Shown here: positions 8,840 through 60,882 of the stretch, in pieces
Layout: each line of letters starts with the position of its first letter
How positions within the stretch are numbered: position 1 is the stretch's first letter
From: a virus
Strand: one strand, 5' to 3'
DNA length: 64,000 bases
Virus record (IMG/VR): IMGVR_UViG_3300045988_174698
Translations under genes and position numbers: made by a program
Notes under the pieces: model-generated
The model's database searches: none
What the model was told of the DNA's origin: nothing
What the model saw: only the letters and a program-made list of their open reading frames with translations

Positions 8840-11462
8840 TTAAATAAGTTTTGCAGCTAATTTTGGGTTAAGTAATAGTTTATTACATTTACCAGGATAG
8901 TGTTTGTTTAGTGTTCTTACTAGGCTAAAGAGTAGATCTTCAGTTAACAATAACTTATCATTATCAACTATCCTAAGAATACGATCTATAATTAGGTCCA
9001 TTTTACACCCAGGTTTACTAAGATATAATAAGCTATAATTTATAAATCTAGTGGTAATTACAGAAGCTATATCGGCACGATACTTACCTTTATCATATAA
9101 TTGATTCTCAAGTATCCTTTTAATATCGTTCCAATCCGTATTAACTAGTTCTTCTGGGGAAGGAAGTTTATCTAATTTATTAGCTATGAATGTAGTAAAT
9201 AATCCCCCAACAATATCATCACTATCAAGAAAACATCCAGAAGCTATTTGCAGAATAAAGGATAAATTCTCAGGTTTAGACCAATCATCAATACTAGAAA
9301 TAGTATTAATAAACATAGTATAATTGCGAGCATTAATTTTAGACTGCCTAGATTTTGAACGGTCCATTAATTCATCACTATAAAGAAGCATAAAGTTAAT
9401 CGCCTGATTATTATACCCTTTTTCCTCGGCATATTTAGCCCAATCATATTTATCAAACTTAATATTAAAGTTTAACATACGGGTTTTTATAGCCTCATCA
9501 ATTTCTGTTACATTAAAATCTCCCCCTTCAGGATTAGCTGTTAAAATAACAGTACTATTAGGAGGTAATTTCCAAGAGAAATATTCTTGTCTTGATATAA
9601 GCTCCATAATAGCAGCCAATACAATTGGAGAGCTACGATTCACATCGTCAAGATTCAAAATTGTAGGTTTACTTAGATCAATACTTTTTATCCATTCTGG
9701 AATTGCATAGCTCATTCTAGTTTCCTCAGATATTTCCCAACCTGCTTTACTATAACTTTCTATAAGTTCTGCAGTTATCCATCTACATTCATCATTTTTA
9801 CATACATAGTGCTCTTTAATTGGCCACCCGCAAATTTCTCCTGGGTCTGAAATTTGACTAAGGTTTTTCTTGATGTAATTAGCACCAATTTCACTAGCTA
9901 TTTGTTCGATTAAACTCGTTTTCAATTTTGTTATCTCTAGAGCTTTTTATCTCTAGATTCTATATCTTCATATTCGATATAGTTCAGCATATCTTTTCAC
10001 CTCTAAAAATAGTAAGGTGGAGCACACTCGTGGGAAAATTATATTCTGTACAACAGGTTCATTTCCTATGCGTTGCACTGTAGCAAATCATTTAAATCTG
10101 CTATTAGCTCAGGATTAGCATCTCAGCCTTCCCTGAATTTGCGCTCTAATAATTTTAAAGATTTCTCTTTAAAACGGCAATCTTTGATTTTATTAAATAT
10201 TTGATATTTTCTATCTAAATAAATTGTTGATTTATAATATAGGTGATATAAGTAGGCAGTTGCCTTTATTCCCGAAAAACTAAATGCAAAAGTAAAATCG
10301 CTATGATTATTAGAAAACAAATGTCTAGGCTCTAAGTAGCTTACCATTTTACTTAAAAATTCTTTTGCACCTAAACAGCTTATTTCTGGTTTATCATATA
10401 ATCCTAATGACCCATCACCATCAAAATATCCTCTAATAAAATGTCTTATTAAATCTTTAGACTTAAAGATATTTTCATTAGGAAATTTTAAAGTCAGTGA
10501 CTTTTTAGGAGTACATCCGTAAGAATTTAATGTTTCTCATAAGTGTTTATTTGTTAGAGCAAATCTACATCTAAAATATTGCTTATTGTTACATATAATA
10601 GATGATATTTTTACTCTATTACCTGTTACTTGAAAAAACTTCTGTAATTTATATAAATGTTCCACATCAGATCCTTTTAAAGAAACTTCAAAATTATAAT
10701 GAGGTTTTCCATTTTTAGGAATTGAAGCAATATATCCATCAGCAAAAATAAAACCCAATCAATAAGCTTTTTCTTCGGTATCTATAATATCAAAAATGTG
10801 TTCATTAAATTTTAGCATATTTTGAGTATTAATAACTGGTATTCCAAGTTTCTTTAATCTAATAGAAAAATTGCTTCGACTAAATTTATATTTATTACTT
10901 ATTTGTGTTAGGCTATAACCATTACTATACATCTGCACTGCCTCTTCAAAGTAAGTATCTAAATTACTCTTTCGTATATTAATGTTATTATTATGAAGAA
11001 TAGTGGAAATAGTATTTCTGGATACATTATATAGTTTAGCTATATCACTACAAGTTTTACCCAAATTATATAGTTTACAAATATTAATTTTTTCAGATAA
11101 TATTAATTTACTACACTCTCTACAAAGAGAATTTCTATTAGCTACACGACTAACTGTAGTAGGATGTACTTTACAAATTTTACTTATATCTTTAATCTTA
11201 TAACCTTGATTATATAAATCAATAATCTTATTTTCTAAATCATTACTAATTTTTTGCATAATATTTAAATTTTAAATAAATTAAATCTATGCAAAAGTAA
11301 TAATATAAAACAATTTAATCAAATATTTTATAATAAATTACCTATACCAGGAAGTGAAGTAAGTTGAACACTTATTGGAAATTCTCCTCTTTCTTGGAGA
11401 GATCTATTATTGTTTATAATATATTTTAAAATAGGTTTTATTTCTCCTAATGTTAGTTCCAT
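8840..11462 (-). CDS. MoxR-like AAA+ ATPase, split by a group I intron: exon 1 at 11462..11340, exon 2 at 9922..8840 (~401 aa spliced)
   Basis: Exon 1 ends ...SLPGIG and exon 2 starts KTSLIEQIASEIG..., which reconstitutes the Walker A motif GIGKTSL. The ILTANPEGG sensor region is MoxR-like. The unspliced read-through hits a stop after 3 codons. Confidence 0.7.
9923..11339 (-). mobile_element. Group I intron (family R, copy 1) with LAGLIDADG homing-endonuclease ORF, inserted in the Walker A codons of the MoxR ATPase
   Basis: The 5' exon ends in T (GGT|) and the intron ends in G (...ACAAAATTG|). The 3' core (10130..9935) carries an S-like element GAAGATATAGAATC and blocks shared with four other loci. 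Confidence 0.65.
10123..11259 (-). CDS. Intron-encoded homing endonuclease: N-terminal repeated HTH modules plus double LAGLIDADG (GFIFADGYI, GYFDGDGSL); 3 TGA codons
   Basis: ORFs 10759..11259, 10537..10758 and 10123..10347 are in frame and joined by TGA (the TCA at 10759-10761 and 10537-10539 on the plus strand). Confidence 0.7.
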
Positions 11463-15869: not shown

Positions 15870-16328
15870 TTATGTATTCATTTTATAAAACATTTGTATC
15901 TTTTCTTTCAAATCATATAGTATTGCTTTTTCCTGAACAGTATTTACAAATAGTTCGTACATATTATACTTTTCATCATTATATATTAACAACATATCAT
16001 TAATACTTACATCAATATAATTACCTCCTATATAATATCGTAATTTAAAATTAATATATGAATTATTACATTCATACTTAATATCTGTATAACATTCTGA
16101 AGCAATATTTAATAAATTATTAATAAAGTTCTTTGTATAAGATACAACCATTCTATTTGTAATTGGAATCCTACTCTTTGTTCGGTCTTCAATATTTCTA
16201 ATAACATCATTTACAACACTATCCCTTGCTATTATTGTAGCTTGATCTGATTCAATTTTACAAGTTCGAGATTGAAGATTAGAAACAAACAGTTGAATTT
16301 CTTTTAAAGTTAAATTTTCATCATTCAT
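15870..16328 (-). CDS. Hypothetical protein
   Basis: ORF track only. Confidence 0.35.
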   Translation of the reverse strand: MNDENLTLKEIQLFVSNLQSRTCKIESDQATIIARDSVVNDVIRNIEDRTKSRIPITNRMVVSYTKNFINNLLNIASECYTDIKYECNNSYINFKLRYYIGGNYIDVSINDMLLIYNDEKYNMYELFVNTVQEKAILYDLKEKIQMFYKMNT

Positions 16329-18662
16329 TAAAATAATTTTAATTGTTTATGCTTAAACATACATACGATTTTTTGTGCTGCAGCTATATAAAAAGAATAA
16401 TTAATATTAGATGGTAATTCATCAGATTTATTAATAGTATTCAAAATTGTTACGCCAGAGTCAGTTAATAGTTTAATATAGTTATATCGTCTACCATTAG
16501 AATCTATTTTACATTTATATAGCCATGGACCATCAGTAGATATATAATATCGGTTAATACGTTGAATTAACTGACCATCATATTCTACAGAATAATCTTT
16601 ACTAACTTTTTGATAAGTTATAAACTTATTAATATCCTTACAAGCATAAATAGTATCTGCAACAGGAATTCCATCTGCTAAACATTTATTAATAGCTTCG
16701 GGAATAATAACTGCATCCATACCTTTGCCAAGTTTTACCTTGTCGATAAACATACCTTTTGTCTTTAAAAGACTTGGATCTTTTGTTTCAGAATAACCTT
16801 CCTTAATTGCAAGATAGTCATTAATAGCAAACTGATACATTGCTTCAAATCTATCCTCTTCAAGAGTAAGTTTAGTTAAGATTTCCCAATTCTTGCAAAT
16901 TTCTTGTACATTGGTATATTTGTTTCGTTTTAATAGTACAAATAATCCATCAGTATTAGCTTGAATTATTCTACAACCTGCTTGAACTAATTTCTCCGCT
17001 AACATTAATAACATCAATTGTCCATTAATTCTAATTTGCATAACAGCATATGGAGAATAACAAAAATTATGTTCATTTTGTAGATTACCAGACAAACCGT
17101 TTAAAGCAAGTTTTAGAGTTTCATTCTTAACTTTATTTCCATTATGTTTAGCTTCTAATCGTTCATCTCGAATTTGAGAGTAAACTTCAAGGAATTCTTT
17201 ACCAAGATGTTTTGGATAAAATCCATATTGTATAATAATGCTAGGATATAGTGCATATCCATTTTAATTTTCGACTATATCTTAATTTTTATATCTAATT
17301 TGTTCTGAATTTAATTCAATGTAGTGTCATTTAAAGCCTTTATATGAAGCTTTTGTACCTTGACAACAACAATAAATGGATATAACCAAATTAAATTTAT
17401 AAAAATTCGCGGCGTTTCGAATAAAACCTTATAAAGTTTTATCCTACTCTCTTTCGAGATAGTCTGTGAACCTTGATCCTATAAGGATCCTTGGCTGCGG
17501 ATTATAATACTTATTAAGTTTTTACTTTCTCATAAGCGTTATCTTATGTGCTACACTATGTATTACTACTAGCTGCAGTATTAATAAGTTAAATTAAGTT
17601 CCCGCAATTAACCGCGTTTTACTTGCGCCACTATATTAACGCAACATCTATATCAATAAGCATTTCATCTTTTGTAGGTATAATTTCCTCAGGTTTATTA
17701 ACACTATGAATACCTCCAACTCCAACAGTATATTCTAATTCATCAAATATAAAATGTTTCTCATATCCTTTACGTCCAGGAGAAACTGTTTGCTTTTTCA
17801 TATCAGCTAATACACTTTTAAGTATAGGTGATTCAAACTCAATAAAAGGTAAAATAACCTCATTTAATGGAATTAAATCGCAAGGTGACCTCAAATCTTT
17901 AATTTGATTTCAGGTTTGTCCTGTTTTTTCAAGATACTTTTGAGTAATAATTTTCATTCCAATATTAACTCCATCTTTATTAAGTACCTTTACTCCATAC
18001 TCATCTTCAATAGCTATACGTAAATCAATATCCTTTTTACATCTATTTAATAATTCCTCAGTAGAATCAACATCATTAATATTATATTCTATCATTTTAG
18101 GAATTTCAGATACAGGAAGATAATCTTGGAAATCGCCTTCATATTCTTGAACATTTCGAAACTGCATAGTTACTTGCATCTCCTTTAACCCTACTCTCAA
18201 CTTTTGAGAATAAAGCATAGTTAACAAGTCTAATGTTTCAAAATAAATTTTATATTTCCACTTTGTTCAAGAACTAAAATTAGTATCAGTAGATTGAATT
18301 ATTAAATTACTAAGTTTAAATAAAGATGCGCATATCTCTGAATACGACATCTTTAACATTACTTTATGAAAATCAATAATATAATTAATAATAGGATTAT
18401 CATAATGAATATTATTGTATCCACAAAATATTTTATCTGTTTTAAACTGTAAGTTTGTAGTATAGTTTCTTTCTCAAATACCAATTTGAGATTGATTTCT
18501 AACAGTTCAAAATAAATCTACTAACTCTTGTAAATTATTCTTACGTTCAGATATTTCAAAAAATAAGCGTTCTCCTGTTTCTGTATTTTTTACAACACAG
18601 TGAAACACATTAGGAAATATTTCAATATCATAAACGTATACAGTTTTATTTCTAATTAACAT
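16328..18662 (-). CDS. Family B DNA polymerase (with 3'-5' exonuclease), split by a group I intron; exon 1 ~18662..17643, exon 2 ~17261..16328
   Basis: Exo I is VYVYDIEIF and Exo II is GYNNIHYDNPII. Motif A is split: the 5' exon ends ...DIDVA(L) and the 3' exon resumes (GYA)LYPSIII. Motif B-like KLALNGLSGN and motif C-like IIQANTDGLFV follow. The exons are in different frames and separated by a structured non-coding RNA. Confidence 0.65.
17262..17642 (-). mobile_element. ORF-less group I intron (Tetrahymena-like core) in DNA polymerase motif A; boundaries are approximate
   Basis: The minus-strand RNA contains AATTGCGGGAA (P), AATCCGCAGCCAAGGATCC (Q), GGTTCACAGACTATC (R) and TTAAGATATAGTCG (S), in that order. 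Confidence 0.7.
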
Positions 18663-19390
18663 TATACCTCATCATATGTAATTCTAAATATTTCAGGTTT
18701 GCAAGGATAAAATTCATTCCTAACTCCTCTGATAATATAATCTCCAACTGAAGCTTTCATTATACCTTCAAGAGTTGGAATTCCAAGCGAATAATCATTT
18801 TCTTCTTGTGTATTGTTATAACGCAAAAGTTGATTTCCGACAAACTCTTCAACTTCTTCAACATTATTTCCAATATACTGAATAGCCTCTATTTCTACAG
18901 GTTTTTTTCTATATTTCTTTATCATTTATAACGGTATATATTTTATTAAAATCATCTTCATTAATCCAAAATCTGTATCCGTTCCAGTTGCAATAAAAAC
19001 CATTTACTCTTTTATTCTCAGTATGCTGAACTTGCATTTTTAATATTTGATGATTATAATCAAATTTTGTCATTGGCTGAACTTCAACTTCGAGGTTTTT
19101 AACTTTTGCTTTCATTAAAACAAACTGCTAATCATCACACTTAAATATAACAAGTTATCTTGTAAAGCTATATTATTAAGCTCACATAGATTGTTATATA
19201 TCTTTATATAAAGTTTACAAATATTTAACATTTTCCTATTAATTTTAACCAATCTTCCTCTACAAAGTAAGACATTCAACCATATTGATCTAATCAACTC
19301 TCTTCATTAATAAGACAGGCATGTTCATTAAAGTCAGGATGTTCCATTAACTCCTGAGTATACGGTCATTCTACAATTACATATTTCACA

Positions 19391-24438: not shown

Positions 24439-24474
24439 ACTTATATCTTAAATAAAATATTAGTTACAACGACT

Positions 24475-27000
24475 TCAGCCGCAGGACATACAGCTTACAC
24501 ATCCTGAAGTAGCAACCAATGGTTCCCCACATTCTGGACATACGTTTTTATTATCATGATTGGCATTTATTGAAGGTTTTGTATCTGGAACACTAATCTG
24601 CTCTTTTTGAGGAATTTTTACATTATCTTTTATAGCTTCTGTAATTACTCTTGATATAATATCTGGGCATGACAAACCATCAATATTAATTTTTCTAGCC
24701 TTACATGTACTACAAGCAGGACAATTAATTCCTCTTATCTGATCAATTATCTCATCGACTTTAACACCACTTCTAAGATTAAGAGAAATTAATCTTGTTA
24801 CAGCATTCATGTTAGCTTGACAGATACCACCTTTAGATGTATGTGTGAACACTTCTACAAGATTACCCTTATTATCCTTATTGCAAGTTATATATAATGT
24901 TCCACATGCACATTTTTTACAAAAAGTTGCACCATGTGTTGTACCAAGTGTTTTGCGTGAAACTGGTGCAATGGAATCAAATTTGAAAGATTGTTTTTCT
25001 TCTTCAACTTTAATAGATTCCCCCATAATAGCTGGTCTACTATTTTCCCTAAATATCGTTAACCCTTTTAAACCAGCTTTCCATCCAGCTAAATATAATT
25101 TTTCTACATATTCTTGTGATGTATCTTTCTTAAGATTAATTGTAGAACTTATTGCTGTATCAATATACTTTTGTAATGCTGCTTGAAGCTTTATACGATC
25201 ATATGAATCAATATCATATGCTGTTACAAGAATATCATCATCTATAGAAGAATTAGGAACAGAATCAAGATATTCTTTTACAATTTTAGCATAAACATCA
25301 TATACCTTTTCTTCTTTATTAAGAGATACTGTTTTTCTCTGAAATTTCTTCATAAACAGGGGTTCCAAACCGCCCGATACTCCAAGCATAGTTGAAATTG
25401 ACCCAGTTGGTGCTATCGAAAGTAGTGAACAGTTTCTAAGACCAAATTTTTTCATTTTTTCAAGTTCATCGCTTGAAAAGGCTTCTTTCATTATACTAGA
25501 TTCAAATACCTTGTCTGAATAGCCAGGAAATGTTCCAAGTTCTTTAGCAAGATCATATGAGGTAAATACAGAATTTCTGAAAATAAGTCTCATAATATTT
25601 TCTGCAAGTTTTATCGACTCTAGGCTTCCATATTTAATATTCAATTTTATAAACATATCATGAAGTCCCATAATTCCTATGCCAAGGTTTCGGTATTTAG
25701 CAATTTGTTCTTGTTGTTCCTTAAGAGGGTGGTTATGAAGATTTTCATCTATAATCCTATCCATTTCCCTAACAATAATCTTTATATCTGAAACTAGTTC
25801 AGAATAATTAACTGTTGCAAATTTTGTAAAAGGATCTTTTACATATTCAGATAGATTTATTGAGGATAAGTTACAGGACATATTTTTTGGCAAAGGTTGT
25901 TCCTATATATTACCTATTTAGCTTTTTATCTAGATATTCTGGAAGTTTCCTTCATACTCTTTATTGCCATTAGAGATACGTCTGTCAATTCAGACCAGTT
26001 TAGCATATATTTTCACTATAAAGTGTTGGGCACTCTTGGTGGAATTATATTTATTCATCCACTATGCGTTACAATGTTTCATAGCCTATTCGTAATCTAT
26101 GAAATTATCTCGGTATTATCATGCAATAATTTGTTTAGACTTCACCGATTTTACCCAATTTTTTACATGAGGCAAACAATACAACTAACTGATAACCAGC
26201 CATTTACTACCACATGGATTACTAGTATCTATTTGATACTCAGTAATATACTCCATCAAATTATAATTTCTGAATCTATTCATAAACATGACTCCAGGCT
26301 CTGCATGTTCATATGCATTTTTCATCATAAGTTTATAAATTTCAATTGGAGTTATATCATAATCAGGATATCCCTTAAACTTAGATTTAATATGAAGGGT
26401 TATAACTTCTCCTGTCTCATAAAACTTATCTACGGCATTCATAAAGTTATCATCAACTTCCACAGAAAGGTTTGCATTATTGATCTTTCCAAGATTGCTT
26501 TTAATAGTTATGAAATCTTTTATTTGTGGATGATCTGCTGAAAGAGACATCATTAATGCGCCTTTACGTGATCCACCCTGAGAAACAGAAGCAGTTACAG
26601 TATTAAATATCTCCATAAATGGAACAATACCATCTGTTTCATATCCTGAAGAAAGTTTTGATCCTTTTGGACGAATATCAGATAAAGATAATCCTTGACC
26701 TCCCTGAGCTTTGAACGTTAATCCTATATTTTTTGCCGTTTGAAGAATATCATCAAGATTATCTGCAATTTTACCAGACGAGTAGCAATTTGAGTACGAA
26801 GCCTGTCTGTCTGTTTGTCTGTTTGATAGAGTTCTTCCTCCAAATAAGAACTTTTTAGCAACAATTAACTTTCTTAGTTCTTCATTTCCACCACTAACTC
26901 TATCAAACCACTCGTCTAAAGACTCATTATTATATCTATACTTTTTATTTCAAATATCAATTCCTAATTGATCATTATTAAGCCATTCTTCAACAGTCAT
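24475..27000 (-). CDS. Ribonucleotide reductase catalytic subunit (class II-like, C-terminal Cys-rich zinc ribbon), split by a group I intron: exon 1 at 27000..26199, exon 2 at 25912..24475
   Basis: The N-terminus reads ...VPFMEIFNTVTASVSQGGSRKGA. Exon 1 ends ...SNPCG and exon 2 starts EQPLPKNMSCNLSSINL, reconstituting NPCGE...CNLxSINL. PTGSISTMLGVSGGLEP and the C-terminal CPECG...C..C are also RNR features. Confidence 0.7.
25913..26198 (-). mobile_element. ORF-less group I intron (family R, copy 4) at the NPCG|E active-site codons of RNR
   Basis: The 5' exon ends TGT GGT| (T at -1) and the intron ends ...ATATAG| (G). It contains the family blocks ...AGCATATATTTTCAC..., CACTATGCGTTACAATG and CTCGGTATTATCATGC. 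Confidence 0.65.
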
Positions 27001-27023
27001 ATATTATATACTTAATTAATAAT

Positions 27024-32312: not shown

Positions 32313-32395
32313 ATTTAAAAACTAAATTTATTTTTATTTCTGATATCTTTTACTTCTGTATCTTTTACAGTTGCATCTTTTATTTCTTTTTCTCT

Positions 32396-34860
32396 TCATG
32401 AAAGATAATCTTCATAATTTATTTCATCAGATTTAGGTAAAGGATAGAACATACCAATACTACCTTTGAAAGCAGACATGATAATTCTATTAGAAATACC
32501 ATATCTATTTTTAAGAATAATAATAGATCTACAAATATCTTGTAAACCATATCCTTCGTTATCATCCATTATTTTATATCCTCTATAACTTTTTAGTTGG
32601 GTTTTAAATGGACTAAATAATGCAATACAAATATCAGCAGCTTGTAATGGTTCACCTGACTGTTGAATTTCATCCGCAGTAGGCTCTTCCATACCAGCTT
32701 TTCTCCTATCCATAGTTGTACTATTTCTATTTTCTTGCATTATAATATCAAAACTAGTCTGACATAGTTCTCTAAATCTGACACAATAAGTTGATATAAG
32801 ATCCATTTCTTCTTTTTTAGTTCTCCCTTTTTGAGGATTTACTAAAAGTAAATGATCAATAACAACATTAACTATTTGATTAGGATTATTTGGGGTATAT
32901 ATAGTTCTTTTTCCATCAGGACTTTTTTGAAAGGTTCCTAAACTTTTGTGGAGTTCCATCATTTCTGCATAAAAAGAATCTGCAGAGAGCTGTTTATCAT
33001 ATATAATAAACTTATGACTTATAGATTCTAATCACTCACGAGCTTCAATTACATACTTATGTATATCATCTGGTAACTTATTAGTAAATGACATTAATTG
33101 CATATATGTAACTTCAATACCATAAGTTTCATATAAATATAAGCTTAATAATTTCGCCAACAATGTATTAGCACTTAGTTCAAGAGAAAAATAAACTATA
33201 ATTATATCTTTATCTGGATAATCTTTTAAAATACGATATATATCTGTATATATAACAAAAGAGCTTTTCAATTTGTTATCTTACTTGCTTTTTATCAAGT
33301 AATTCTTATAGTTTCCTATAAGTTCAGCATATATTTTCATCTCTTTGAGATGTCGGATACTCTTGGGAAAATTATATTCTGTATAACAGGTTCATTTCCT
33401 ATGCGTTACAATATAAAATAACTGTTAAATTACTTTATTATCTCGGGGTTAACATGCTTATATACAAAATTTGGATAATTATTCTGTACATATAGTTTAG
33501 CCTTCTCCGATATTACCCGATCATTATCTCTAAAATCACTTTTAGAGACGGCAAAATTATGATTTTTAAAACACAAATATCTATAATATTTCCTATTTAA
33601 ATAAATTGTAGAATTTTCATAAATTCACTGTAAAAATTTAATACTATTATTTATATTACTTTTTATATCAAATATTAGATCACTTGTTTTATTTGCAACA
33701 TATCATGTTCATGAAGTATTTGAATATACTTCTATATTTTGTAAAATATTTTTAGTTCCAACAATACAACATCTTGGTTTAAAAATATTTTTACTACCTC
33801 CATAAGATAAACATCCATCACCATCAAAATATCCTCTAATAAAATGTCTTATTAAATCTTTAGATTTAAAAATATTTTCATCAGGAAATTTTAAGACATA
33901 ACTTTTATTTGGAACACATCCTTTTTCTATTAGAGCATCTTTAATATGTTTACAAGAAATAGCAAATCTACATCGTTGCAATTTATTATCAGTTCTTGGT
34001 AATCTGAAAATATTTAAGGCACTATATAATTTTTCTAGATGTTCAATATCATCAATATGTAAATCACATGAGATATGGTAAGAATTTGTAGAAACATTAC
34101 CATCAGCATATAAAAATCCCAATCAATATGCTTTTGTTTCTGTGTCTATTACATCAAAAAATGATTCATTTACTGTTTTACGATTTAGGTTGAAATTATG
34201 TTTTTTTTAGAAACTTTGAAATAACACAACCTTGAGTATTATATAATTTACCTATTTCTTTCAGAGACATACCGTTATTAAAACAATCAATCATATTTTT
34301 TAAATCATTTAATTTAAACGTATATGATATCCTATTACTTTTATGTGATAAATAAATTCCGCATCGTTTAAATAAATTACCTAATGCAGCAGATGTACAA
34401 TTGCACAATTTAGAAACAGATTTAAGTGATATTTCAGGATTTTCATGAAATTTACATAAGGCTTCTTTAACTTTTACATCATTTACTTTATGTTTTCTAA
34501 CATTCTTAAAATAAAAATCTAAAAGAATTAAATCTACAGCTTGTTTTGAAATATTTAATTTGTTGGATATTTCAAATGAATTTAAATTTTGTTTTCTTAG
34601 TTCTATTATTTTGTTTATCATAGTAAAAATTATTTTAATTTTTACTACAAAAATAACGCAATTTATTTATATTTACAAATATCTGCGTTGGAAATTATTA
34701 ATGTTTTACCAACACTACTTTTGCTGAATATTAACTTATATACACCCTTTTTAAATCCTCCAGTATAAAAATCCAATTTTAAAAGTCCTGTTTTAAGACC
34801 TATATTTTTACCTTCTCGCCCGTCTTCTATTTTAGAATATAATTCACCTACCAAACTCAT
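32396..34860 (-). CDS. DnaB-family replicative helicase (RecA-like domain), split by a group I intron: exon 1 ~34860..34690, exon 2 at 33267..32396
   Basis: Exon 1 reads GLKTGLLKLDFYTGGFKKG...SKSSVGKTLII (Walker A). Exon 2 reads ...IIIVYFSLELSANTLLAKL... and ...GEPLQAADICIALF (DnaB IEQDADVVLFL). Confidence 0.65.
33268..34690 (-). mobile_element. Group I intron (family R, copy 2) with LAGLIDADG homing-endonuclease ORF, in the DnaB helicase; the 3' end is exact and the 5' end is approximate
   Basis: The intron ends ...ACAAATTG| and the 3' exon begins AAAAGCTC. The core blocks GTTCAGCATATATTTTCATC and CATTTCCTATGCGTTACA are shared with copy 1. Confidence 0.6.
33435..34621 (-). CDS. Intron-encoded homing endonuclease, paralog of 10123..11259 (HTH repeats plus LAGLIDADG x2: GFLYADGNV, GYFDGDGCL)
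   Basis: ORFs 34196..34621 and 33709..34122 extend through TGA to 33435. An ~80-nt stretch is nearly identical to 10400-10480. Confidence 0.65.
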
Positions 34861-39101: not shown

Positions 39102-40753
39102 TTAGTCTATGTCCCCCTTATAGGCATTCATAATAGATTTTTCCTTTCTAAGCCAAGAGCCCTCAGTTTCTGCTATATCTAGAACAGTACGGCTAATAGA
39201 TTCTTCTTCTCAATTTTGTTATCGTATAGCTTTTTATCTATACTTCTTATACTTCATTTTGTATAAGCTCAGCATATATTTTCACCTTCAGCATTATCTG
39301 TTAAGGGTAAATCACTCGTGGGTTTATTTTATTCTAATCTGTTATTAATATTTTATAATTGTATATAGCGTTGTATACCTGTTTTGGAAGTATATTTTTA
39401 TATTTGTTAGCATATTCCTTTAAACAAGTTTCTTTCTCTTTCTTATATGCTCTAAATGCTTCTTCAATTGTAGAAAAAGTTCCTATATGTTTTTTCTTAT
39501 TCATATAATTAATTTGAGCAATTATTTTATTGTTTTTGATTCTGACTCCTATTGGAGTATTACCTCTACATTGAAATCTTCAAGTAATAGCAGTATTAAT
39601 TTCCTTTGGGATAAAACAACAATAATTTGGAGAATAAATTTTATTCCCCTTTACCAAGAAATCTTTATCTATAACAAATGATTCGTTATAACAATTATTA
39701 TAATATCAATCCGCAAAATTCTGAAAATTTAATCATTCTTTACAAACAGTAACTCCATTTCCTCCATAGTTATTATATTCAGAAACTTTTGGACAATAAC
39801 ATCTTCCAATCATTTCTTTCCAAATTTTATAACATCGAGTTTGTTTACCGTTTTTGTCCCTAGAACTATATTGACCTACTCCAAAATAACCTGTATTGTA
39901 TACAGACGGATAATAAGGATCTTTAACAGAGCCCTTTTTTAGATTACCTAGTTCAGCAGTAATAATAGTACCTGTTTGTAAAAATTTTATTATTACATTA
40001 TATGAATCAATATATTCTAGAATGATAAAATCTCCAGAACTATTTGAAGTCATAATTTTATTTTCATAAATTTGTTTGTTATTTGTCATATATCATAATA
40101 TTTTAATTAAACATAGTACAAATATACAAATTCTTTTTCAGACTCACAAACAAATTAGGTTCAAAACCTATGCGTTACACTGACTTAATATATTACTATT
40201 AAGTTTAGCACGGTATTAGCATCTCAGCCTTCACCGTTTTTGATTTATTCTATTCTACTTATTTCTAAGCAGACAGGCAGAATTCTACCTGCTCGTTCAC
40301 TAACATTCCTGTCTCTTTATCATGCCCGTTCAACCAGTTGAAAGTAGCCCAATCACCCTCATTAGCTGCCTGATCAACAATTTCATTAATCATTTGAGTA
40401 GTTTCAATTTCAAGATCTACGGTAATCTTAAAAGGATCTACCATATCTTCTACTTTCTTATCAAACTGCTCAATAGTAGGATAAATATACTCTGCATCGT
40501 TTTCATTTAAATATTTACGAATCCAGGAATGATGTAAGTATTCTTCATCTGCTCTTTGTTTGTAATACTCTTCAAGAATAACAAATCCTCTAACACCAAA
40601 GTAATTTGCAAAATTCATATACGCATTATGATTTTGCAATTCATGCTTAAGCTGACGAAGAAGTAGTTTTTGAATTTCAGCACTTAAAGTGCATTCACGC
40701 CTACTAACATCCTTTTTTTCTACAGGATCATTTGCCTCATTTTTAATTATCAT
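39102..40753 (-). CDS. Ferritin-like protein, split by a group I intron: exon 1 at 40753..40287, exon 2 at 39210..39102
   Basis: Exon 1 aligns to bacterial ferritin FtnA (E..EExH..., DWATFNWL vs DYPTFNFL) and ends ...VNEQ(V). Exon 2 EEESISRTVLDIAETEG... continues the FtnA C-terminus (EQHEEEKLFKSIIDKL). Confidence 0.65.
39211..40286 (-). mobile_element. Group I intron (family R, copy 3) carrying an AP2-domain endonuclease ORF between the 5' and 3' core halves
   Basis: The 5' exon ends CAGGT| and the intron ends ...ACAAAATTG|. The 5' half (40250..40130) has ...AGCATCTCAGCC... and ...CCTATGCGTTACACTG... blocks; the 3' half (39330..39250) has ...CACTCGTGGG...AGCATATATTTTCACC. Confidence 0.65.
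39342..40089 (-). CDS. Intron-encoded putative homing endonuclease with W..M..RC...YGG.G motif and C-terminal AP2 DNA-binding domain
   Basis: YKIWKEMIGRCYCPKVSEYNNYGGNGVTVCKEW, then GVRIKNNKIIAQINYMNKKKHIGTFSTIEEAFRAYKKE (AP2-like). Confidence 0.5.
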
Positions 40754-55642: not shown

Positions 55643-55714
55643 TATCCCCACCTTGATTCGAACAAGGACCTTTCGGGTAGAAGCCGAAGATTCTCTCCAT
55701 TGAACTATGGGGAC
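55643..55714 (-). tRNA. tRNA-Arg (anticodon UCU)
   Basis: Cloverleaf: the acceptor is GTCCCCA/TGGGGAT, the anticodon arm is TTCGG-CTTCTAC-CCGAA, and the T-arm is CCTTG-TTCGAAT-CAAGG. Confidence 0.7.
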
Positions 55715-57926
55715 TAAATAAATAGTTTATCTTACTATTTATATAAATATTATTATTAAAGTTTTTGAATATTCTTCATAAAAACTCTAGTAATAATATC
55801 TATATTCATCTTACATTGCTCAAATATATCTATTTTATAAGAATCTTTCAGTGGGCTATCCTCTTTGTATGGCCAATGTGCAATTATAAATTCATATTCA
55901 CATCTAGCCCAGTATTGATACATTAATTTTCTCGTTACAAAATCCTTACACTGCTCAAAATTTTCTTTAGAAGGTTTATCTGCTTTATAAGCATCATTAT
56001 ACTTTCTAACTAGGTAAGGCATTATATCATAATAGGTTGGTTTATTTTTATTATATTCTAACCATAATACTTTGAATGGTATCATAAATTTTACTATTAC
56101 AATTTTTCACCTAAATAATTAACTTCTATAACATTTAAATAGTTAACTTTAAATGGATAATCATCAACTATAGTATTATACTGTATACAAACACTTCTTT
56201 TATCTGTATCATGAAAGCAAGATACAACATGATTGAAATTGATATTACAGTTATATCCTTCACCTATAATATTAATAATATTTATCTTTTTCATATTGTA
56301 TTTATGTAAAAGCTCTTAGTAATAAAATCTTAACTTAAAATTCTAAGTGGTTTTTATACTTGGCAGCACATCGAAGAAACCTATATGGATCCTTTATAAA
56401 AATGCGTTTTATATTAGGATTTAAATGGCTAAGATCTGGGTAAAAACAAAAAAAGCCAAACTTACCTGTATCATCTAAAACAACAACAGAGCTCTGGATT
56501 TTATTACCTTTCATGTATATCTGAACGTCGAAATATGGCCTATACCCAAGTTTAACTAGACTGCTGTAAAATAAAAGGAATTGTTTAGATAATATTATAG
56601 TATATGGATATTCTTTCATTATAGTAGTGAATTAATTATTAAGATAGCTTTTTTACTGTCATAACGACCCTTGTAATCAGATTTAGGTATAATATTCAAT
56701 ACCTTATTGACAATATTCTCACCACTAGTAGCATATAATGCTCCACTTGGATGATAAAAATCATGTCGTAAATCTACAACAATTAATGTACGCTTCATAT
56801 AGTTAAATTAAGCATAATAAAATTTGAATAAAGTGTAGACTTTGATCAATATAATATGAAGTAAAATCCTTCATATACTTTTTATAAAGTCCTCTACACT
56901 TCCAGTAATCAATAGCATAATGTCCAACTAGTAACATTATTAATTTCCAAATTGCAGCTAATCCCAAAAAGTGTAATGCAATATAAATACCTAACGCCCA
57001 AATTGCACAATGTACAAACAAGACATAATTATTTTCACATTTATACTTCTTACAAAACTCATCTTGCAACGGATAGTCTAAAACTAAATTTAGAAAGTAA
57101 AGTATAATAAAATTTATCATTATCTAATCTTTATTTTTGAGAACAAACTTCCAATATCTAAGAAGATTTGTATTATCAATACAATAGTATTTACTACAGG
57201 AACCCATATTAAAAGGAAGATCCAATCATTATCTTGATCTACATAAAAAGAATAAAGATCACCTATTGTGCTTCCACACTTGTCTTCTTCAATCCAATCA
57301 AAATACAGGGAAACGTGTAAATAAACAACTCCTATTAGATAAATACCTAAAATAATTAAAAATGTATACATATTAATCCAGTTTTTCCCAGCATTCTTGA
57401 TCAAAATTCCAATGTCTAATATCACAAATATTAAACTCGAAACATAATCCAAGAATGCCGATATTAAAACAAAAGCCTGCATGATCCCCTTTATTATTAT
57501 AACTAATATGGAAATCAAGCAAGCCAAATGTATTGATGTTTATAAACAAATAATAACAAATACCAAATAGTTGAATATCAAAGTCAAAAAATTTTGATAA
57601 CTTAAAGATTTTAAATCTAATAGACATTTCTAATGATTTAAACTCTCCTATAGGGTGCACAAACACCCACCACAAAAAATCTAATTTACAAAGCTTCATA
57701 TTTTTCTTAAATTAGAGTAATAAGCGGTTATAGACTATACTTCTAATTTGGGTTAATAACTAATATTATTGTAATACTTTATATCTTCAATATAAGTTTT
57801 CTGTGTATCTCCAGTAGGCCCTATCATAATATTAGGTTTTATTGTTCCGCATGATATATTAAGTATTACTAAGACTATTATAACTATTTTTACTATTGTT
57901 TTCATCTTTATGTTATTAATGTTTAG

Positions 57927-57999
57927 AGTAGGTAACAGGATTCGAACCTGTGATATAGCTTTTGCAGAGCTGGGCCTTAACCAACTTGGCGATACCTAC
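57927..57999 (-). tRNA. tRNA-Cys (anticodon GCA)
   Basis: The acceptor is GTAGGTA/TACCTAC, the T-arm is CAGG-TTCGAAT-CCTG, and the anticodon loop is CTGCAAA. Confidence 0.65.
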
Positions 58000-58004
58000 A
58001 TGTG

Positions 58005-58095
58005 CGGTAAGGGTGGGATTCCAACCCACGCAGCGATTTCTATACGCTCTAATGCATTTCAAGTGCATCCTCTTAAAGCTCTTGAGTACCTTACC
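58005..58095 (-). tRNA. tRNA-Ser (anticodon UGA), class II with long variable arm
   Basis: The acceptor is GGTAAGG/CCTTACC+G, the anticodon arm is ATGCA-CTTGAAA-TGCAT, the T-arm is GTGGG-TTGGAAT-CCCAC, and the variable arm is 22 nt. Confidence 0.65.
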
Positions 58096-58133
58096 AAATT
58101 TATCTATCTATAAACTTTCTAGTAAGTTATTTG

Positions 58134-58206
58134 CTGGACCGATAGGATTCGAACCCACGTTACCCAAATTAACAGTTTGGTGCTTAAACCACTCAGCCAC
58201 AGTCCA
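58134..58206 (-). tRNA. tRNA-Asn (anticodon GUU)
   Basis: The anticodon arm is CCAAA-CTGTTAA-TTTGG, the T-loop is TTCGAAT, and the acceptor is TGGACTG/CGGTCCA (one G-U pair). Confidence 0.6.
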
Positions 58207-58358
58207 GTACATTTTATATATTTATTACAGATAACTCTGCAAAAGTATTTGCAGAAATATTATAAATTAATTAGTCGAGAATGATAGTAATGCTCTATCC
58301 CCTAGAAATCCCAAATTTCTCGTGCTACTTCCACACCCCATTCTCGATAAACTATCCT

Positions 58359-58592
58359 TTATTCAAGGATAGCGTTTAATTTTGCAAGAACACCTTCGTT
58401 TTTCTTACGAATGTTTTCAAGAGCTTCTTTTTCAGCTTGAGCTGCTTTGATTTCCTCGTCTCTTGCTGCAATTTCTAATTCTGCAGAAGCATTTACTTCT
58501 TTAAGACCATCAATTGCAGTTTTGAAAGCATTTAAAACATTGTCTACTTTCTTAGACAGATCTACAGATGTTTTACTTTTTGAATTAAACAT
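58359..58592 (-). CDS. Small coiled-coil protein
   Basis: ORF track only; the sequence is charged and helical. Confidence 0.3.
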   Translation of the reverse strand: MFNSKSKTSVDLSKKVDNVLNAFKTAIDGLKEVNASAELEIAARDEEIKAAQAEKEALENIRKKNEGVLAKLNAILE

Positions 58593-58639
58593 GTTTAATA
58601 GTTTTTTAAATTAATGCTGTGAGGAGATTTTTGGGACCC

Positions 58640-58711
58640 CCAATAATAGTGAACCATATGAGACTCGAACCCCTCTATTTCCTTGCAAAGGAAATGTGCT
58701 CGCCTTTACAC
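58640..58711 (-). tRNA. tRNA-Ala (anticodon UGC); T-stem and acceptor contain G-U pairs or mismatches
   Basis: The anticodon arm is TTTCC-TTTGCAA-GGAAA, the T-loop is TTCGAGT, and the acceptor is GGGCCAT/ATGGTTC. Confidence 0.5.
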
Positions 58712-58941
58712 TACATGGCCCAAAATACTTAAAGTTTAATACGAAATTGTCTTATTTTATTACATATTTTACAACGCTGTATATAAACTTTTTCAACTTT
58801 AACTGGGCGACTTTGATAGTCATTTTCAAACACCTTTTTTAATTTTTCTTCAACTGTCTCCCAATCATGTACATGAAATTTCAATTCAAACCATTTCTTT
58901 ATAAGTTCTAACATATTATAAAGTTTTTAATAAAATTTTAG

Positions 58942-60679: not shown

Positions 60680-60882
60680 ACACTTAATCTTATACTCTTT
60701 TTCTTTTAATACTAGTTAATACACTAAAATAAAGATTCATTTCTATTCCTAAAGTAAAGGATAGTACATAGTACTATTACCACAAACCAGATAAAAAGAA
60801 ATAGTAATATTAGACAGTTAATTAGTACTGTTGCCATAGTATTATTTATTATATGTGAGAAATATTTATTTAATTTTAATAG

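What the first reader, a model, noticed from the sequence alone, without database searches (positions are those of the whole stretch)
33268..34690. Second LAGLIDADG-encoding group I intron, in the DnaB-family helicase just after the Walker A motif
- The DnaB RecA-like domain is split between ...GLKTGLLKLDFYTGG...SKSSVGKTLII (34860..~34690) and ...KDIIIVYFSLELS...GEPLQAADICIALF (33267..32396).
- The ~1.4-kb insert ends ...ACAAAUUG| and carries the R-family core blocks (GUUCAGCAUAUAUUUUCAUC, CAUUUCCUAUGCGUUACA).
- It encodes a 395-aa HTH plus double-LAGLIDADG endonuclease that is a clear paralog of the one in the MoxR intron.
- The two ORFs share a nearly identical ~80-nt stretch (33800-33880 vs 10400-10480), which suggests recent duplication or gene conversion between intron copies.
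Basis: partly seen in the sequence, partly recalled or inferred. Interest (0 to 1): 0.6.

Follow-up and report, generated by a model that had tools for sequence, protein, structure and literature searches.

The report
Self-splicing intron splitting phage helicase
A 1.4-kb mobile self-splicing (group I) intron carrying a homing-endonuclease gene interrupts the ATP-binding loop of a gut phage's replicative helicase; this is a real but ordinary example of the intron load already described for this kind of recoded gut phage.

Summary
A DnaB-type helicase gene on the minus strand is interrupted by a 1,439-nt group I intron (window 34707..33269). "GKTLII" is read-through.

The ribozyme core (33556..33269) belongs to a large phage intron family. 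A P3-P9.1 structure with the P3/P7 pseudoknot and P7.1/P7.2 (subgroup IA-like) is strongly supported by covariation on a structure-blind alignment of 44 members. A related phage has an ORF-less 305-nt intron at the identical site; another has no intron.

The HTH + double-LAGLIDADG endonuclease gene sits in the P1 loop. In this window an A8 run shifts it by +1, giving two ORFs; four ~99% relatives have A7 and an intact 396-aa ORF.

The ~90-nt near-identical stretch shared with the MoxR-intron endonuclease is real, but it encodes a family-wide conserved motif, so gene conversion is not needed.

The genome uses TGA=Trp and holds at least five group I introns in 64 kb, matching crAss-like "Zeta" phages (Yutin 2021). 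Verdict: new member of a known kind.

The parts
34708..34860 (-). Helicase exon 1 (MSLVGELY...FSKSSVG). It ends with GGU, the Gly codon of the Walker A GK[ST].
   Evidence: ORF. The junction comes from the alignment with 45 uninterrupted homologues. Coordinates.
33269..34707 (-). Group I intron, 1,439 nt. It begins AAAACAUUAAU... and ends ...GAUAACAAAUUG (terminal G at 33269).
   Evidence: the ORF-less intron in L008 sits at the same codon boundary; relatives L131 and L134 have a 1,438-nt intron.
34704..34711 (-). P1 5' strand, UGGU|AAAA (the last 4 exon nt plus the first 4 intron nt). The splice-site U is 34708.
   Evidence: Pairs with the guide sequence UUUUGCCG (33556..33549). Duplex energy is -6.7 to -7.0 kcal/mol, with U.G at the splice site. 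L008's minimum-energy fold recovers the same P1.
34622..34691 (-). 5' leader of the endonuclease cassette. It starts with CCAACGC (34691..34685), which can pair locally with exon GUGUUGG, and it contains two strong hairpins, the second of which includes the AUG in its stem.
   Evidence: Fold of 34722..34612: -24.7 kcal/mol, z = -4.6. The local hairpin is -8.4 kcal/mol. The leader is absent from ORF-less L008.
34196..34621 (-). N-terminal (HTH-repeat) part of the homing endonuclease: a 141-aa ORF that ends prematurely at ...KFLKKT* because of the A8 run.
   Evidence: The paralogue's equivalent region hits HTH_7 / HTH_23 / HTH_38. The window's own N-part has no significant Pfam hit.
34201..34208 (-). 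A8 homopolymer that causes the +1 frame break. It is A7 in L131-L134 (with a single intact ORF confirmed in L131 and L134) and A6 in L130.
33430..34206 (-). Double-LAGLIDADG part of the endonuclease (258 codons with no ATG; motifs YWLGFLYADG and FIRGYFDGDG). The last ~42 codons overlap the guide sequence, P2, P3, P4, P5, P4' and P6.
   Evidence: Pfam LAGLIDADG_3 E 5e-6 and LAGLIDADG_1 E 7.5e-4. 5,065 homologues, many intact at 387-410 aa. Overlap coordinates.
33815..33906 (-). The 94-nt stretch that is 92.6% identical to 10412-10505. It encodes KFPDENIFKSKDLIRHFIRGYFDGDG, the family signature around LAGLIDADG motif 2.
   Evidence: It is also 95% identical to MT835492.1.
33549..33556 (-). Internal guide sequence UUUUGCCG. 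GCCG pairs with exon UGGU (G33552 opposite U34708). UUUU pairs with the intron's AAAA (P1) or with exon 2's AAAA (P10).
   Evidence: Identical in ORF-less L008. The MoxR intron has GAUUGCC pairing with GGU|AAUU, with compensatory changes; cognate duplexes are -7.0 and -8.5 kcal/mol against -5.3 and -5.4 for swapped pairs.
33527..33548 (-). P2 hairpin UCUCUAAAA-GUGA-UUUUAGAGA.
   Evidence: Perfect 9-bp stem with a GNRA loop. L008 has UCCAUAGAA-GUGA-UUUUAUGGA, with two compensatory pairs.
33282..33520 (-). Catalytic core. Helix coordinates: P3 33520-14 / 33359-53; P4 33510-05 / 33448-43; P5 33502-00 / 33453-51; P6 33438-30 / 33421-13; P7 33404-00 / 33331-27; P7.1 33399-95 / 33370-66; P7.2 33389-79; P8 33352-38; J8/7 ~33337-32; P9 33321-06 (GAAA loop); P9.1 33301-282.
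   Evidence: Coordinates. Covariation on the MAFFT alignment A1 of 44 family members: 94.3% of cells paired, 46/55 pairs changed on both sides, score 0.632 vs 0.17 (shuffles) and <=0.135 (slid). The window keeps all 83 columns that are >=90% conserved.
33269..33280 (-). Conserved 3' tail GAUAACAAAUUG with the terminal (omega) G at 33269.
   Evidence: The GAUAACA block is invariant in A1. Homology to other phages stops at this point.
32315..33268 (-). Helicase exon 2 (KSSFVIYTDIYRILKDYPDKDIIIVYFSLELS...NKFSF*). It contains an in-frame TGA = Trp at 32396-32398.
9923..11339 (-). Paralogous intron in the MoxR/AAA+ gene (intact 397-aa endonuclease at 11259..10066, full core at 10168..9923). It is also inserted between the G and K codons of Walker A (LPGIG|KTSLIEQ).

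Best explanation
This is a mobile group I intron with a subgroup IA-like architecture (P7.1/P7.2). It is inserted between the Gly (GGU) and Lys (AAA) codons of the Walker A P-loop of a DnaB-type replicative helicase, in a TGA-recoded, intron-rich gut phage.

Shown:
- The exon junction.
- The intron boundaries.
- The conserved, covarying core P3-P9.1.
- An ORF-less intron and an intron-free allele at the same site in relatives.
- The position of the endonuclease cassette in the loop of P1.

Inferred mechanism:
1. In the pre-mRNA the guide sequence UUUUGCCG (33556..33549, just 5' of P2) pairs across the 1.15-kb loop with UGGU|AAAA. This forms P1, with U34708.G33552 at the cleavage site.
2. An exogenous guanosine bound at P7 attacks after U34708.
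3. The terminal G33269 then replaces it, the guide's UUUU holds exon 2's AAAA (P10), and the exons are ligated.
4. Ligation restores GGU-AAA-AGC (G-K-S) and a 368-aa helicase.

The HTH + double-LAGLIDADG protein, where intact (A7 relatives), would cut intron-less helicase alleles at the P-loop-coding DNA and drive homing. In this window's sequence the gene is disabled, or dependent on slippage, because of a +1 shift in an A8 run.
For: - Junction: about 45 uninterrupted 365-379-aa homologues read ...SSVG|KSSFVIY.... The spliced product covers Pfam DnaB_C 1-244/255.
- Group I splice-site rules hold: U before the 5' splice site, G as the last intron base.
- Same site in relatives: L008 has an ORF-less 305-nt intron that is 77% identical to window 33565..33273, and L009 has no intron.
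- Rfam Intron_gpI aligns to the whole L008 intron (model 1-253, 39.6 bits, E 8.9e-9).
- The family is widespread: 72 GenBank phage records and at least 120 IMG/VR loci. In the relatives examined, members sit in split genes (TerL, RecD helicase) or directly upstream of tape-measure genes, ending where the downstream gene begins or resumes.
- Covariation supports P3, P4, P5, P6, P7 (pseudoknot), P7.1, P7.2, P8, P9 and P9.1: 94.3% paired, 46/55 pairs with double changes, 0/500 shuffles as good, slid controls 27-43%.
- The window's core keeps 83/83 highly conserved columns and has one true mismatch.
- P1, P2 and the guide sequence are conserved with L008 and covary with the MoxR paralogue.
- Endonuclease: Pfam LAGLIDADG_3/_1, two motifs, intact 396-aa ORF in L131/L134, 5,065 homologues.
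Against: - Rfam's group I model does not hit the window's own core even at E<=10, nor other family members. The one positive (L008) is below the curated 50-bit threshold.
- The exon part of P1 is only 4 bp, and P1 must form over a 1.15-kb loop. It competes with a more stable local hairpin (-8.4 vs about -7 kcal/mol).
- P4 carries an A.C mismatch.
- Splicing itself has not been observed.
- The endonuclease is frame-shifted here.
Confidence: 0.87

Rival explanations
1. The A8 run is a sequencing or assembly error (true length A7). This genome then encodes an intact, active 396-aa HTH-LAGLIDADG homing endonuclease, exactly.
For: Four related IMG/VR contigs have A7 (L131 and L134 are ~99% identical across the intron), and L131 and L134 carry one open 396-aa frame. 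The difference is a single base in a homopolymer. Intact 387-410-aa relatives are the norm.
Against: The window as given reads A8. Other close relatives carry different frame-breaking lesions: L130 has A6 plus a 46-nt deletion, and L121 has a 1-nt insertion. Inactivating indels therefore do occur in this lineage, although L130 has only ~4x coverage.
Confidence: 0.35
2. The A8 allele is real, and the endonuclease gene is a recently inactivated pseudogene. This would be the decay phase of the homing cycle, while the ribozyme stays under selection because the helicase is essential.
For: Three different frame-breaking lesions appear in three close relatives (window A8; L130 A6 + 46-nt deletion; L121 +1 nt), while the core shows only 4 substitutions, one of which preserves a P9 pair. 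An ORF-less intron exists at the same site in L008. The LAGLIDADG frame has no ATG of its own.
Against: Four relatives are intact. Apart from the single extra A the ORF has no other lesion. A homopolymer error cannot be excluded.
Confidence: 0.4
3. The insert is not spliced. The helicase is made as two polypeptides or is a pseudogene, and the insert is a free-standing endonuclease cassette that split the gene.
For: Phage genes split by free-standing endonuclease genes are known (own knowledge). No splicing data exist. Rfam does not call the window's core.
Against: - The break falls between the G and K of the P-loop, which cannot work as two chains.
- Exon 2 has no start codon in context.
- The 290 nt after the cassette are a conserved, covarying ribozyme core retaining all 83 conserved positions.
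- A 305-nt ORF-less version interrupts the same codon boundary in L008.
- All ~45 full-length homologues are single chains.
Confidence: 0.04
4. The endonuclease-containing intron uses the nearby CCAACGC (34691..34685) as its guide sequence, forming a local P1 with exon GUGUUGG, and not the distal UUUUGCCG. Alternatively, this local hairpin is a regulatory decoy that delays splicing.
For: The local hairpin has 7 bp plus 2 A-U pairs at -8.4 kcal/mol, more stable than the long-range P1. It lies 16 nt from the splice site, where P1 normally closes. It is conserved in L130, L131 and L134.
Against: It places U.U, not the near-universal U.G, at the cleavage site. The distal guide is identical to the one used by ORF-less L008, sits in the canonical place just 5' of P2, offers P10, and covaries in the MoxR paralogue.
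Confidence: 0.1
5. The 94-nt near-identity between the two endonuclease genes reflects recent gene conversion between intron copies.
For: 92.6% nucleotide identity over 94 nt within genes that are otherwise ~38% identical at the protein level. The same stretch is 95% identical in an unrelated faecal phage.
Against: The encoded 26-aa block is a family-wide signature: median 79% identity in 120 homologues vs 34% elsewhere, and 18 proteins keep >=90% of the block (the listed examples are ~30% identical elsewhere). Synonymous-codon identity inside the patch (23/28) is not significantly above that outside (50/71; p = 0.31), as expected for 29%-GC codon bias.
Confidence: 0.1

Closest known systems
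Group I introns with LAGLIDADG ORFs in crAss-like phages of the Delta/Zeta groups (Yutin et al. 2021, PMC7886860)
   Same: TGA is read as sense, there are many tRNAs, and several group I introns sit in core replication and structural genes (at least 5 in this 64 kb). The ORFs include LAGLIDADG endonucleases. Family members were hit in cr6_1, cr7_1, cr128_1 and cr131_1. The helicase is 27-28% identical to crAss-like 'replicative DNA helicase'.
   Different: I did not verify membership of the Zeta group with marker genes. That paper found introns through their protein domains and did not describe this helicase P-loop site or the RNA structure, as far as the text I read shows.
Subgroup IA phage group I introns, e.g. 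T4 td and Staphylococcus phage Twort orf142-I2 (own knowledge; class features per Hausner et al. 2014, PMC3984707)
   Same: Compact core of ~230-300 nt. An extra helical pair sits between P7 and P3' (P7.1/P7.2). P9 carries a GNRA loop. The 5' splice site has U.G and the intron ends in G. The insertion lies in a conserved codon of an essential DNA-metabolism gene, and the endonuclease ORF sits in a peripheral loop.
   Different: According to PMC3984707, phage introns most often carry GIY-YIG, HNH, PD-(D/E)xK or EDxHD enzymes, whereas here it is a LAGLIDADG with N-terminal HTH repeats. The ORF is in the P1 loop and reads ~42 codons into P2-P6. Rfam RF00028 scores the family poorly.
DnaB-helicase inteins and other P-loop inteins (own knowledge)
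   Same: A selfish element with a homing endonuclease targets the DNA that encodes the Walker A / P-loop of a replicative helicase. The host tolerates it because it removes itself.
   Different: Removal is at the RNA level (ribozyme), not the protein level. The insert has stop codons in the exon frame, and a 305-nt ORF-less form exists, which excludes an intein.
Introns with the endonuclease ORF in the P1 loop, e.g. Physarum PpLSU3 / I-PpoI (own knowledge, recalled, not checked here)
   Same: The ORF lies between the 5' splice site and the guide sequence, so P1 closes over a long loop.
   Different: That is a nuclear rDNA intron with a His-Cys box enzyme; there is no sequence relationship.

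Membership tests
Group I intron | Core helices P3-P9 in two domains (P4-P6 and P3-P8/P7), with the P3/P7 pseudoknot | tested here: met
   Hand-derived structure mapped onto the structure-blind MAFFT alignment of 44 family members: 94.3% paired, 46/55 pairs with changes on both sides, 0/500 shuffles as good, slid controls 27-43% paired. The window has one true mismatch.
Group I intron | 5' splice site after a U that forms a U.G wobble with an internal guide sequence in P1; P10 with the 3' exon | tested here: met
   The homologue-defined junction is after GGU. The guide UUUUGCCG, just 5' of P2, gives UGGU|AAAA / UUUUGCCG with U34708.G33552. UUUU can also pair with exon 2's AAAA. The guide is identical in L008 and covaries in the MoxR paralogue. 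The exon part is only 4 bp, and a competing local hairpin exists.
Group I intron | Terminal (omega) G immediately before the 3' splice site | tested here: met
   The intron ends ...AACAAAUUG|AAAAGC. In most of the 106 unique family 3' tails listed, a G follows the invariant GAUAACA block within a few nt.
Group I intron | Conserved P7 guanosine-binding helix and J8/7, J3/4 and J6/7 joiners (classical P, Q, R, S blocks) | tested here: met
   In A1, P7 contains invariant G-C and A-U pairs and a near-invariant C-G pair. The blocks AAAAUCGGUGAA (P), AAUACCGAG (Q), GUAACGCAUAGG (R) and AAAAURUAYGCYGAAC (S) are conserved. The window deviates at 0 of 83 conserved columns. Identification of the exact G-binding pair is by analogy only.
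Group I intron | Match to the curated Rfam model RF00028 at its gathering score (50 bits) | tested here: not met
   The window's intron gets no hit at gathering or at E<=10. ORF-less L008 at the same site gets a full-length match of 39.6 bits, E 8.9e-9, below the cut-off. Family members in L001 and L003-L006 were not hit at E<=0.1, nor L003 alone at E<=10. The generic model appears insensitive to this subfamily (extra P7.1/P7.2, short P1).
Group I intron | Guanosine-dependent self-splicing | not testable with these tools
   Needs an in-vitro splicing assay or RT-PCR.
Subgroup IA of group I introns | Extra helices P7.1/P7.2 between P7 and P3' | tested here: met
   P7.1 (all 4 variable pairs covary, 98.9% paired, plus one invariant G-C closing pair) and P7.2 (present in ~60% of members) lie between P7 5' and P3'. 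Assignment to IA1, IA2 or IA3 was not attempted.
LAGLIDADG homing endonuclease (monomeric, two-motif) | Two LAGLIDADG motifs in one chain with conserved acidic residues | tested here: met
   Motifs YWLGFLYADG and FIRGYFDGDG. Pfam LAGLIDADG_3 E 5e-6 (27.1 bits, cut-off 22.5). LAGLIDADG_1 E 7.5e-4 (20.8 bits, below the cut-off of 23.1). No solved structure is detectable by sequence.
LAGLIDADG homing endonuclease (monomeric, two-motif) | Intact reading frame able to yield the enzyme | tested here: not met
   The window has a +1 shift at A8 (34208..34201), and the LAGLIDADG frame lacks an ATG. The ORF is intact in L131 and L134, which have A7 (as do the partial loci L132 and L133).
DnaB-like helicase (Pfam DnaB_C, RecA-fold) | Contiguous DnaB_C domain with Walker A GK[ST] after exon joining | tested here: met
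   The spliced protein hits DnaB_C 1-244/255, E 2.7e-13, 50.3 bits (cut-off 27). 149 homologues were found, the best at 722 bits, and the uninterrupted ones read SSVGKS/T.

The most novel reading that the evidence does not exclude
This intron family, or a sub-lineage of it, is a 'P-loop hopper'. Its guide sequence (..UUGCC) and its HTH-LAGLIDADG endonucleases would recognise the DNA that encodes the Walker A G|K[ST] step (GGT|AAA...). That would let one element spread ectopically among unrelated ATPase genes.

In this one genome, two paralogous copies sit at exactly the same P-loop position of a DnaB-type helicase (GTGTTGGT|AAAAGC) and a MoxR/AAA+ ATPase (GTATAGGT|AAAACG). About 9 of 106 distinct family junctions elsewhere, including a RecD-like helicase of Bacillus phage PJN02, are also G|K[ST].
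Probability: 0.25. Interest if true: 0.5.

Novelty: new member of a known kind. Interest (0 to 1): 0.27.

Why it matters
- **Annotation.** Without recognising the code-4 reading and the intron, the replicative helicase is called as two or three fragments, its ATP-binding loop seems to be missing, and the apparent 'GKT' is an artefact of read-through.
- **A usable RNA family.** The analysis yields a structure-supported alignment (A1) for a very widespread phage intron family that Rfam's generic group I model largely misses. This could improve intron calling in gut-phage genomes.
- **Evolution.** The site offers all three states in close relatives: no intron, an ORF-less intron, and an intron with endonuclease. 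This makes it a clean natural system for studying the homing cycle.
- **A testable idea.** The shared G|K insertion point in two different ATPases suggests how such elements move between genes.
- **Limit.** None of this departs from known biology of phage group I introns.

Tried and rejected
- **Rfam scans.** I scanned the whole window at gathering threshold, then both insert regions, then the bare core at E<=10. No intron model hit, so Rfam alone would have wrongly dismissed the finding.
- **First hand-fold.** My first attempt paired UUGCGUUA (~34650) with UAACGCA (~33405) as P4 and placed the ORF in L5. I rejected it once ORF-less relatives showed that UAACGCAUAGG is the J6/7-P7 (R) block, and that P3-P6 lie inside the 3' end of the ORF.
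- **Group II intron.** Rejected. Only ~85 nt precede the ORF, there is no GUGYG...AY, no RT gene and no Rfam hit.
- **Intein.** Rejected. There are stop codons in the exon frame, and a 305-nt ORF-less form exists.
- **'Decaying endonuclease lineage'.** The lesions in the window, L130 and L121 suggested this as the sole reading. It was tempered when four relatives proved to have A7, with the ORF intact in L131 and L134.
- **Gene conversion for the 94-nt patch.** Not supported.
- **Solved structures.** The PDB sequence search for the endonuclease gave nothing useful; the best match was E 0.0038 to a V-ATPase subunit entry.
- **Near-identity search in GenBank phages.** It found no close genome, only short intron and endonuclease patches.
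- **Not built.** I did not build a covariance model, because A1 has 470 columns, over the 400-column limit.
Full report
**Context and reading frame.** The window is 29% G+C. Reading TGA as Trp (code 4) raises the summed length of ORFs of at least 100 aa from 16,102 to 24,429 aa and joins many fragments. All genes discussed here are on the minus strand. Under code 4 the region reads as follows:
- an exon-1 ORF (34860..), MSLVGELY...FSKSSVGKTLIISNADICKYK*
- two ORFs inside the insert
- an exon-2 ORF ending at 32315, ...KSSFVIYTDIYRILKDYPDKDIIIVYFSLELS...NKFSF*

**The gene is one helicase, and the junction is inside Walker A.** The joined exons match Pfam DnaB_C over profile positions 1-244 of 255 (E 2.7e-13).
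- A search of 5.8 billion proteins found 149 relatives. Most are uninterrupted chains of 359-382 aa that cover 91-100% of the query.
- In an alignment of 45 of them, every uninterrupted sequence reads ...FSKSSVG-KSSFVIY..., with variants such as GQSGSG-KSS. There is no room for 'TLII'.
- The Walker A motif is therefore G-K-S. The G (GGU, ending at U34708) is in exon 1, and the K-S (AAA AGC, starting at 33268) is in exon 2.
- The insert is 34707..33269, 1,439 nt. It follows a U and ends in G, as a group I intron must.
- Intron and exon 2 both begin AAAA, so the same mRNA would result from boundaries shifted by up to 4 nt. The U/G rule selects the boundaries given here.

**Three allelic states exist at this site.**
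- L009, a 119-kb Logan contig, has the uninterrupted gene.
- L008, a 166-kb ENA contig, has an ORF-less 305-nt insert at exactly the same codon boundary (GGT|AAAATG...AATGTG|AAAAGT).
- The window has the 1,439-nt insert.
- L008's insert aligns to window 33565..33273 at 77% identity, while the flanking exons are 84% identical.
- The window's insert is thus an L008-type element with a ~1.15-kb cassette placed 16 nt after the 5' splice site.

**Is it a group I intron?** Rfam gave a mixed answer.
- There is no hit in the window at the gathering score, and none at E<=10 on the whole insert or the bare core.
- Rfam's Intron_gpI model does align end-to-end (1-253/253) to the ORF-less L008 insert. The match starts 2 nt before the inferred 5' splice site, at 39.6 bits and E 8.9e-9, below the curated 50 bits.
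- Other family members (L001, L003-L006) were also missed.

I therefore tested the structure directly.
- The last ~190 nt of the insert have relatives at about 67-82% identity in 72 GenBank phage records: Bacillus, Staphylococcus, Clostridium/Clostridioides, Streptococcus, Oenococcus and crAss-like phages.
- In the annotated relatives the element lies in the sense orientation and ends where the downstream gene begins or resumes. It sits inside a split terminase gene (Staphylococcus phage BE02) and a split RecD-like helicase (Bacillus phage PJN02), both after an endonuclease ORF. In phiCDIF1296T and TPWB06 it lies directly upstream of the tape-measure gene, in ORF-less form.
- A scan of IMG/VR with the conserved J8/7-P7' block returned at least 120 loci, and a profile search gave 156 hits.
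- I aligned 44 non-redundant full-length cores with MAFFT, which knows nothing of structure. I then mapped onto the alignment a structure read from the ORF-less members: P3, P4, P5, P6, P7 (crossing P3), P7.1, P7.2, P8, P9 and P9.1.
- Result: 94.3% of 2,286 cells form standard pairs, against 68.9% in shuffles and 27-43% when partners are slid by 1-3 columns. Of 55 pairs, 46 change on both sides. The covariation score is 0.632, against 0.172 (shuffles) and at most 0.135 (slid). None of 500 shuffles reaches any observed measure.
- The conserved single-stranded blocks correspond to the classical P, Q, R and S elements.
- The extra P7.1/P7.2 between P7 and P3' is the hallmark of subgroup IA (class features as listed in PMC3984707). 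It probably explains why the generic Rfam model performs poorly.
- The window's own core keeps all 83 alignment columns that are at least 90% conserved. Its only real defect is an A.C mismatch in P4, which this lineage shares (A.G in L008). The other flagged pairs are MAFFT gap artefacts in P8 and a terminal P3 pair that most members lack.

**P1, P10 and where the cassette sits.**
- Immediately 5' of P2 (UCUCUAAAA-GUGA-UUUUAGAGA, 33548..33527) lies UUUUGCCG (33556..33549), which is identical in L008.
- It pairs with UGGU|AAAA across the splice site: 8 bp at about -7 kcal/mol, with U34708 opposite G33552. Its UUUU can then hold exon 2's AAAA as P10.
- In ORF-less L008 the minimum-energy fold recovers exactly this P1 plus P2.
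- P2 differs between the window and L008 by two compensatory pairs.
- The paralogous MoxR intron, whose ORF is in the same place, has GGU|AAUU pairing with GAUUGCC. Cognate duplexes are more stable than swapped ones (-7.0 and -8.5 against -5.3 and -5.4 kcal/mol).
- The endonuclease cassette therefore occupies the loop of P1.
- A caveat: the first 7 nt of the cassette (CCAACGC) can pair with exon GUGUUGG in a local hairpin (-8.4 kcal/mol). That hairpin would put U.U at the splice site and would compete with the long-range P1. I regard it as a possible decoy or remnant and have not explained it.

**The endonuclease.**
- The cassette encodes an N-terminal region with three HTH-like repeats and a two-motif LAGLIDADG domain (YWLGFLYADG, FIRGYFDGDG). 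Pfam gives LAGLIDADG_3 at E 5e-6. The HTH assignment rests on the paralogue's hits to HTH_7, HTH_23 and HTH_38.
- In the window the two halves are in different frames. A run of eight A's (34208..34201) ends the HTH ORF at ...KFLKKT*, and the LAGLIDADG frame has no ATG.
- Four IMG/VR relatives (L131-L134) have seven A's. L131 and L134, ~99% identical across a 1,438-nt intron, have a single 396-aa ORF.
- L130, at 4x coverage, has six A's plus a 46-nt deletion. L121 has a different 1-nt insertion.
- Intact 387-410-aa relatives covering the full length are common among 5,065 homologues.
I cannot tell without reads whether A8 is an error, a null allele or a slippage site.
- The last ~42 codons of the ORF run through the guide sequence, P2, P3, P4, P5, P4' and into P6 (33556..33430). 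The MoxR copy does the same.
- The leader upstream of the AUG forms strong hairpins (z = -4.6), and the last one contains the AUG. By analogy with T4 intron endonucleases (own knowledge), this might restrain translation from the pre-mRNA.

**The paralogue and the 'nearly identical 80 nt'.**
- The endonuclease at 11259..10066 is a clear paralogue: 38% identity over 261 aa, E 3e-46. The two intron cores are 78% identical over their last 158 nt.
- The stretch 33906-33815 vs 10505-10412 is 92.6% identical over 94 nt. The same stretch is 95% identical in MT835492.1.
- It encodes KFPDENIFKSKDLIRHFIRGYFDGDG. Across 120 homologues this block has a median identity of 79%, against 34% for the rest of the protein. 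Eighteen homologues keep at least 90% of the block, and the listed examples are only ~30% identical elsewhere.
- At identical residues the codon is also identical in 23/28 cases inside the patch and 50/71 outside (p = 0.31).
- Strong protein-level constraint plus AT-biased codon usage is sufficient, so gene conversion is not needed.

**A shared insertion point.**
- The MoxR intron (11339..9923) also lies between GGT (Gly) and AAA (Lys) of a Walker A motif. LPGIG|KTSLIEQ is restored on joining, and the joined N-terminus hits Pfam AAA.
- The two targets share GT.T.GGT|AAAA.
- Among 106 distinct 3' junctions in the family, about 9 are followed directly by K[ST] codons, including the RecD-like helicase of Bacillus phage PJN02. 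Most members are elsewhere.
- This recurrent P-loop targeting is the basis of my 'novel case'. It is a hypothesis, not a result.

**What is known.** Yutin et al. 2021 (PMC7886860) described crAss-like phages of the 'Zeta' group with these features:
- genomes of 145-192 kb
- TGA/TAG recoding
- many tRNAs
- an 'unprecedented' density of group I introns (up to 14 per genome) and inteins in core genes
- LAGLIDADG intron ORFs

The window fits this description:
- Relatives' contigs are 166-167 kb.
- The code is 4.
- There are seven tRNAs and a tmRNA.
- There are at least five group I introns in 64 kb.
- The helicase's distant GenBank relatives are crAss-like 'replicative DNA helicases'.

I did not confirm Zeta membership with marker genes. 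Hausner et al. 2014 (PMC3984707) note that phage introns mostly carry GIY-YIG, HNH, PD-(D/E)xK or EDxHD enzymes, so a LAGLIDADG is the less usual partner, but it has already been reported for these gut phages.

**Verdict.**
- The finding is real and its main interpretation is correct.
- Corrections apply to the 5' boundary, the position relative to Walker A, the state of the endonuclease ORF and the meaning of the conserved patch.
- It is a new member of a known kind. Its value lies mainly in annotation and in providing an RNA alignment for a family that Rfam misses.
- Splicing itself remains inferred.

Noticed in passing
whole window; e.g. 32396-32398, 34124-34126: The genome reads TGA as Trp (code 4) and is 29% G+C. 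Summed ORF length rises by about 50% under code 4. Standard-code gene calls fragment many genes here.
   Followed up: partly
window 9923-11339 (-): The paralogous 'MoxR' intron is inserted between the Gly and Lys codons of the AAA+ Walker A motif (LPGIG|KTSLIEQ). This is the same P-loop position as in the helicase, with similar flanking DNA (GT.T.GGT|AAAA). Its 397-aa endonuclease is intact and also reads through P2-P6 into the R block.
   Followed up: partly
window ~17259-17647 (-): A further group I intron, ORF-less and ~370 nt, splits the DNA polymerase gene (ORFs 18683..17631 and 17263..16328). It has textbook P/Q/R/S blocks. Rfam Intron_gpI matches the full model at 37.8 bits, E 3e-8 (below gathering). 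It belongs to a different subfamily from the helicase intron.
   Followed up: partly
window 25990-26162 (-): The family profile hits (78.6 bits) between the two halves of a ribonucleotide-reductase-like gene (27003..26185 and 25902..24460), suggesting another intron of the same family with a divergent 3' part.
   Followed up: no
window 39214-40242 (-): Another member of the same intron family sits in a ferritin-like gene (exon 1 at 40756..~40265, Pfam Ferritin E 6e-14). The core halves at 40242-40156 and 39336-39214 are separated by a 277-codon ORF (40167..39334) that has no Pfam hit and may be a different kind of endonuclease.
   Followed up: partly
window 61842-62263 (-) and 55643-60957 (-): A phage-encoded tmRNA (Rfam 52.3 bits, full model) and seven tRNA genes. 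This is of interest in a TGA-recoded phage. I did not check the tRNA anticodons for a UGA reader.
   Followed up: no
window 34685-34715 (-): A local hairpin, GUGUUGG-U-AA / UU-U-CCAACGC (-8.4 kcal/mol), mimics P1 but has U.U at the splice site. Its 3' strand is the first 7 nt of the endonuclease cassette and is absent from the ORF-less intron of L008. It may be a splicing decoy or a remnant.
   Followed up: partly
window 33430-33556 (-); L008 3756-3930: The frame used by the endonuclease through the ribozyme core is also open in the ORF-less L008 intron, where it continues directly from exon 1 (GKMINNNFAVHRSDFMDNDRAISEKAKLYVQ...). The peptides are similar because the RNA is conserved. It is unclear whether this dual coding has any function.
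   Followed up: no
proteins P0034, P0040, P0048, P0056, P0073, P0077 (~58% coverage) and P0041, P0050, P0052, P0061 (~70%): Many relatives of this helicase are called as C-terminal fragments of two recurring lengths, some on contigs of about 146-163 kb. This suggests further intron or intein insertion sites in the same helicase in other phages.
   Followed up: no
L001 7537-7830; L011, L014, L057, L069, L088, L102, L105, L113, L114, L127: Many phage contigs carry two or three copies of this intron family within a few kb, or mix it with other group I subfamilies (L001: Rfam 48.5 bits near the capsid gene).
   Followed up: no
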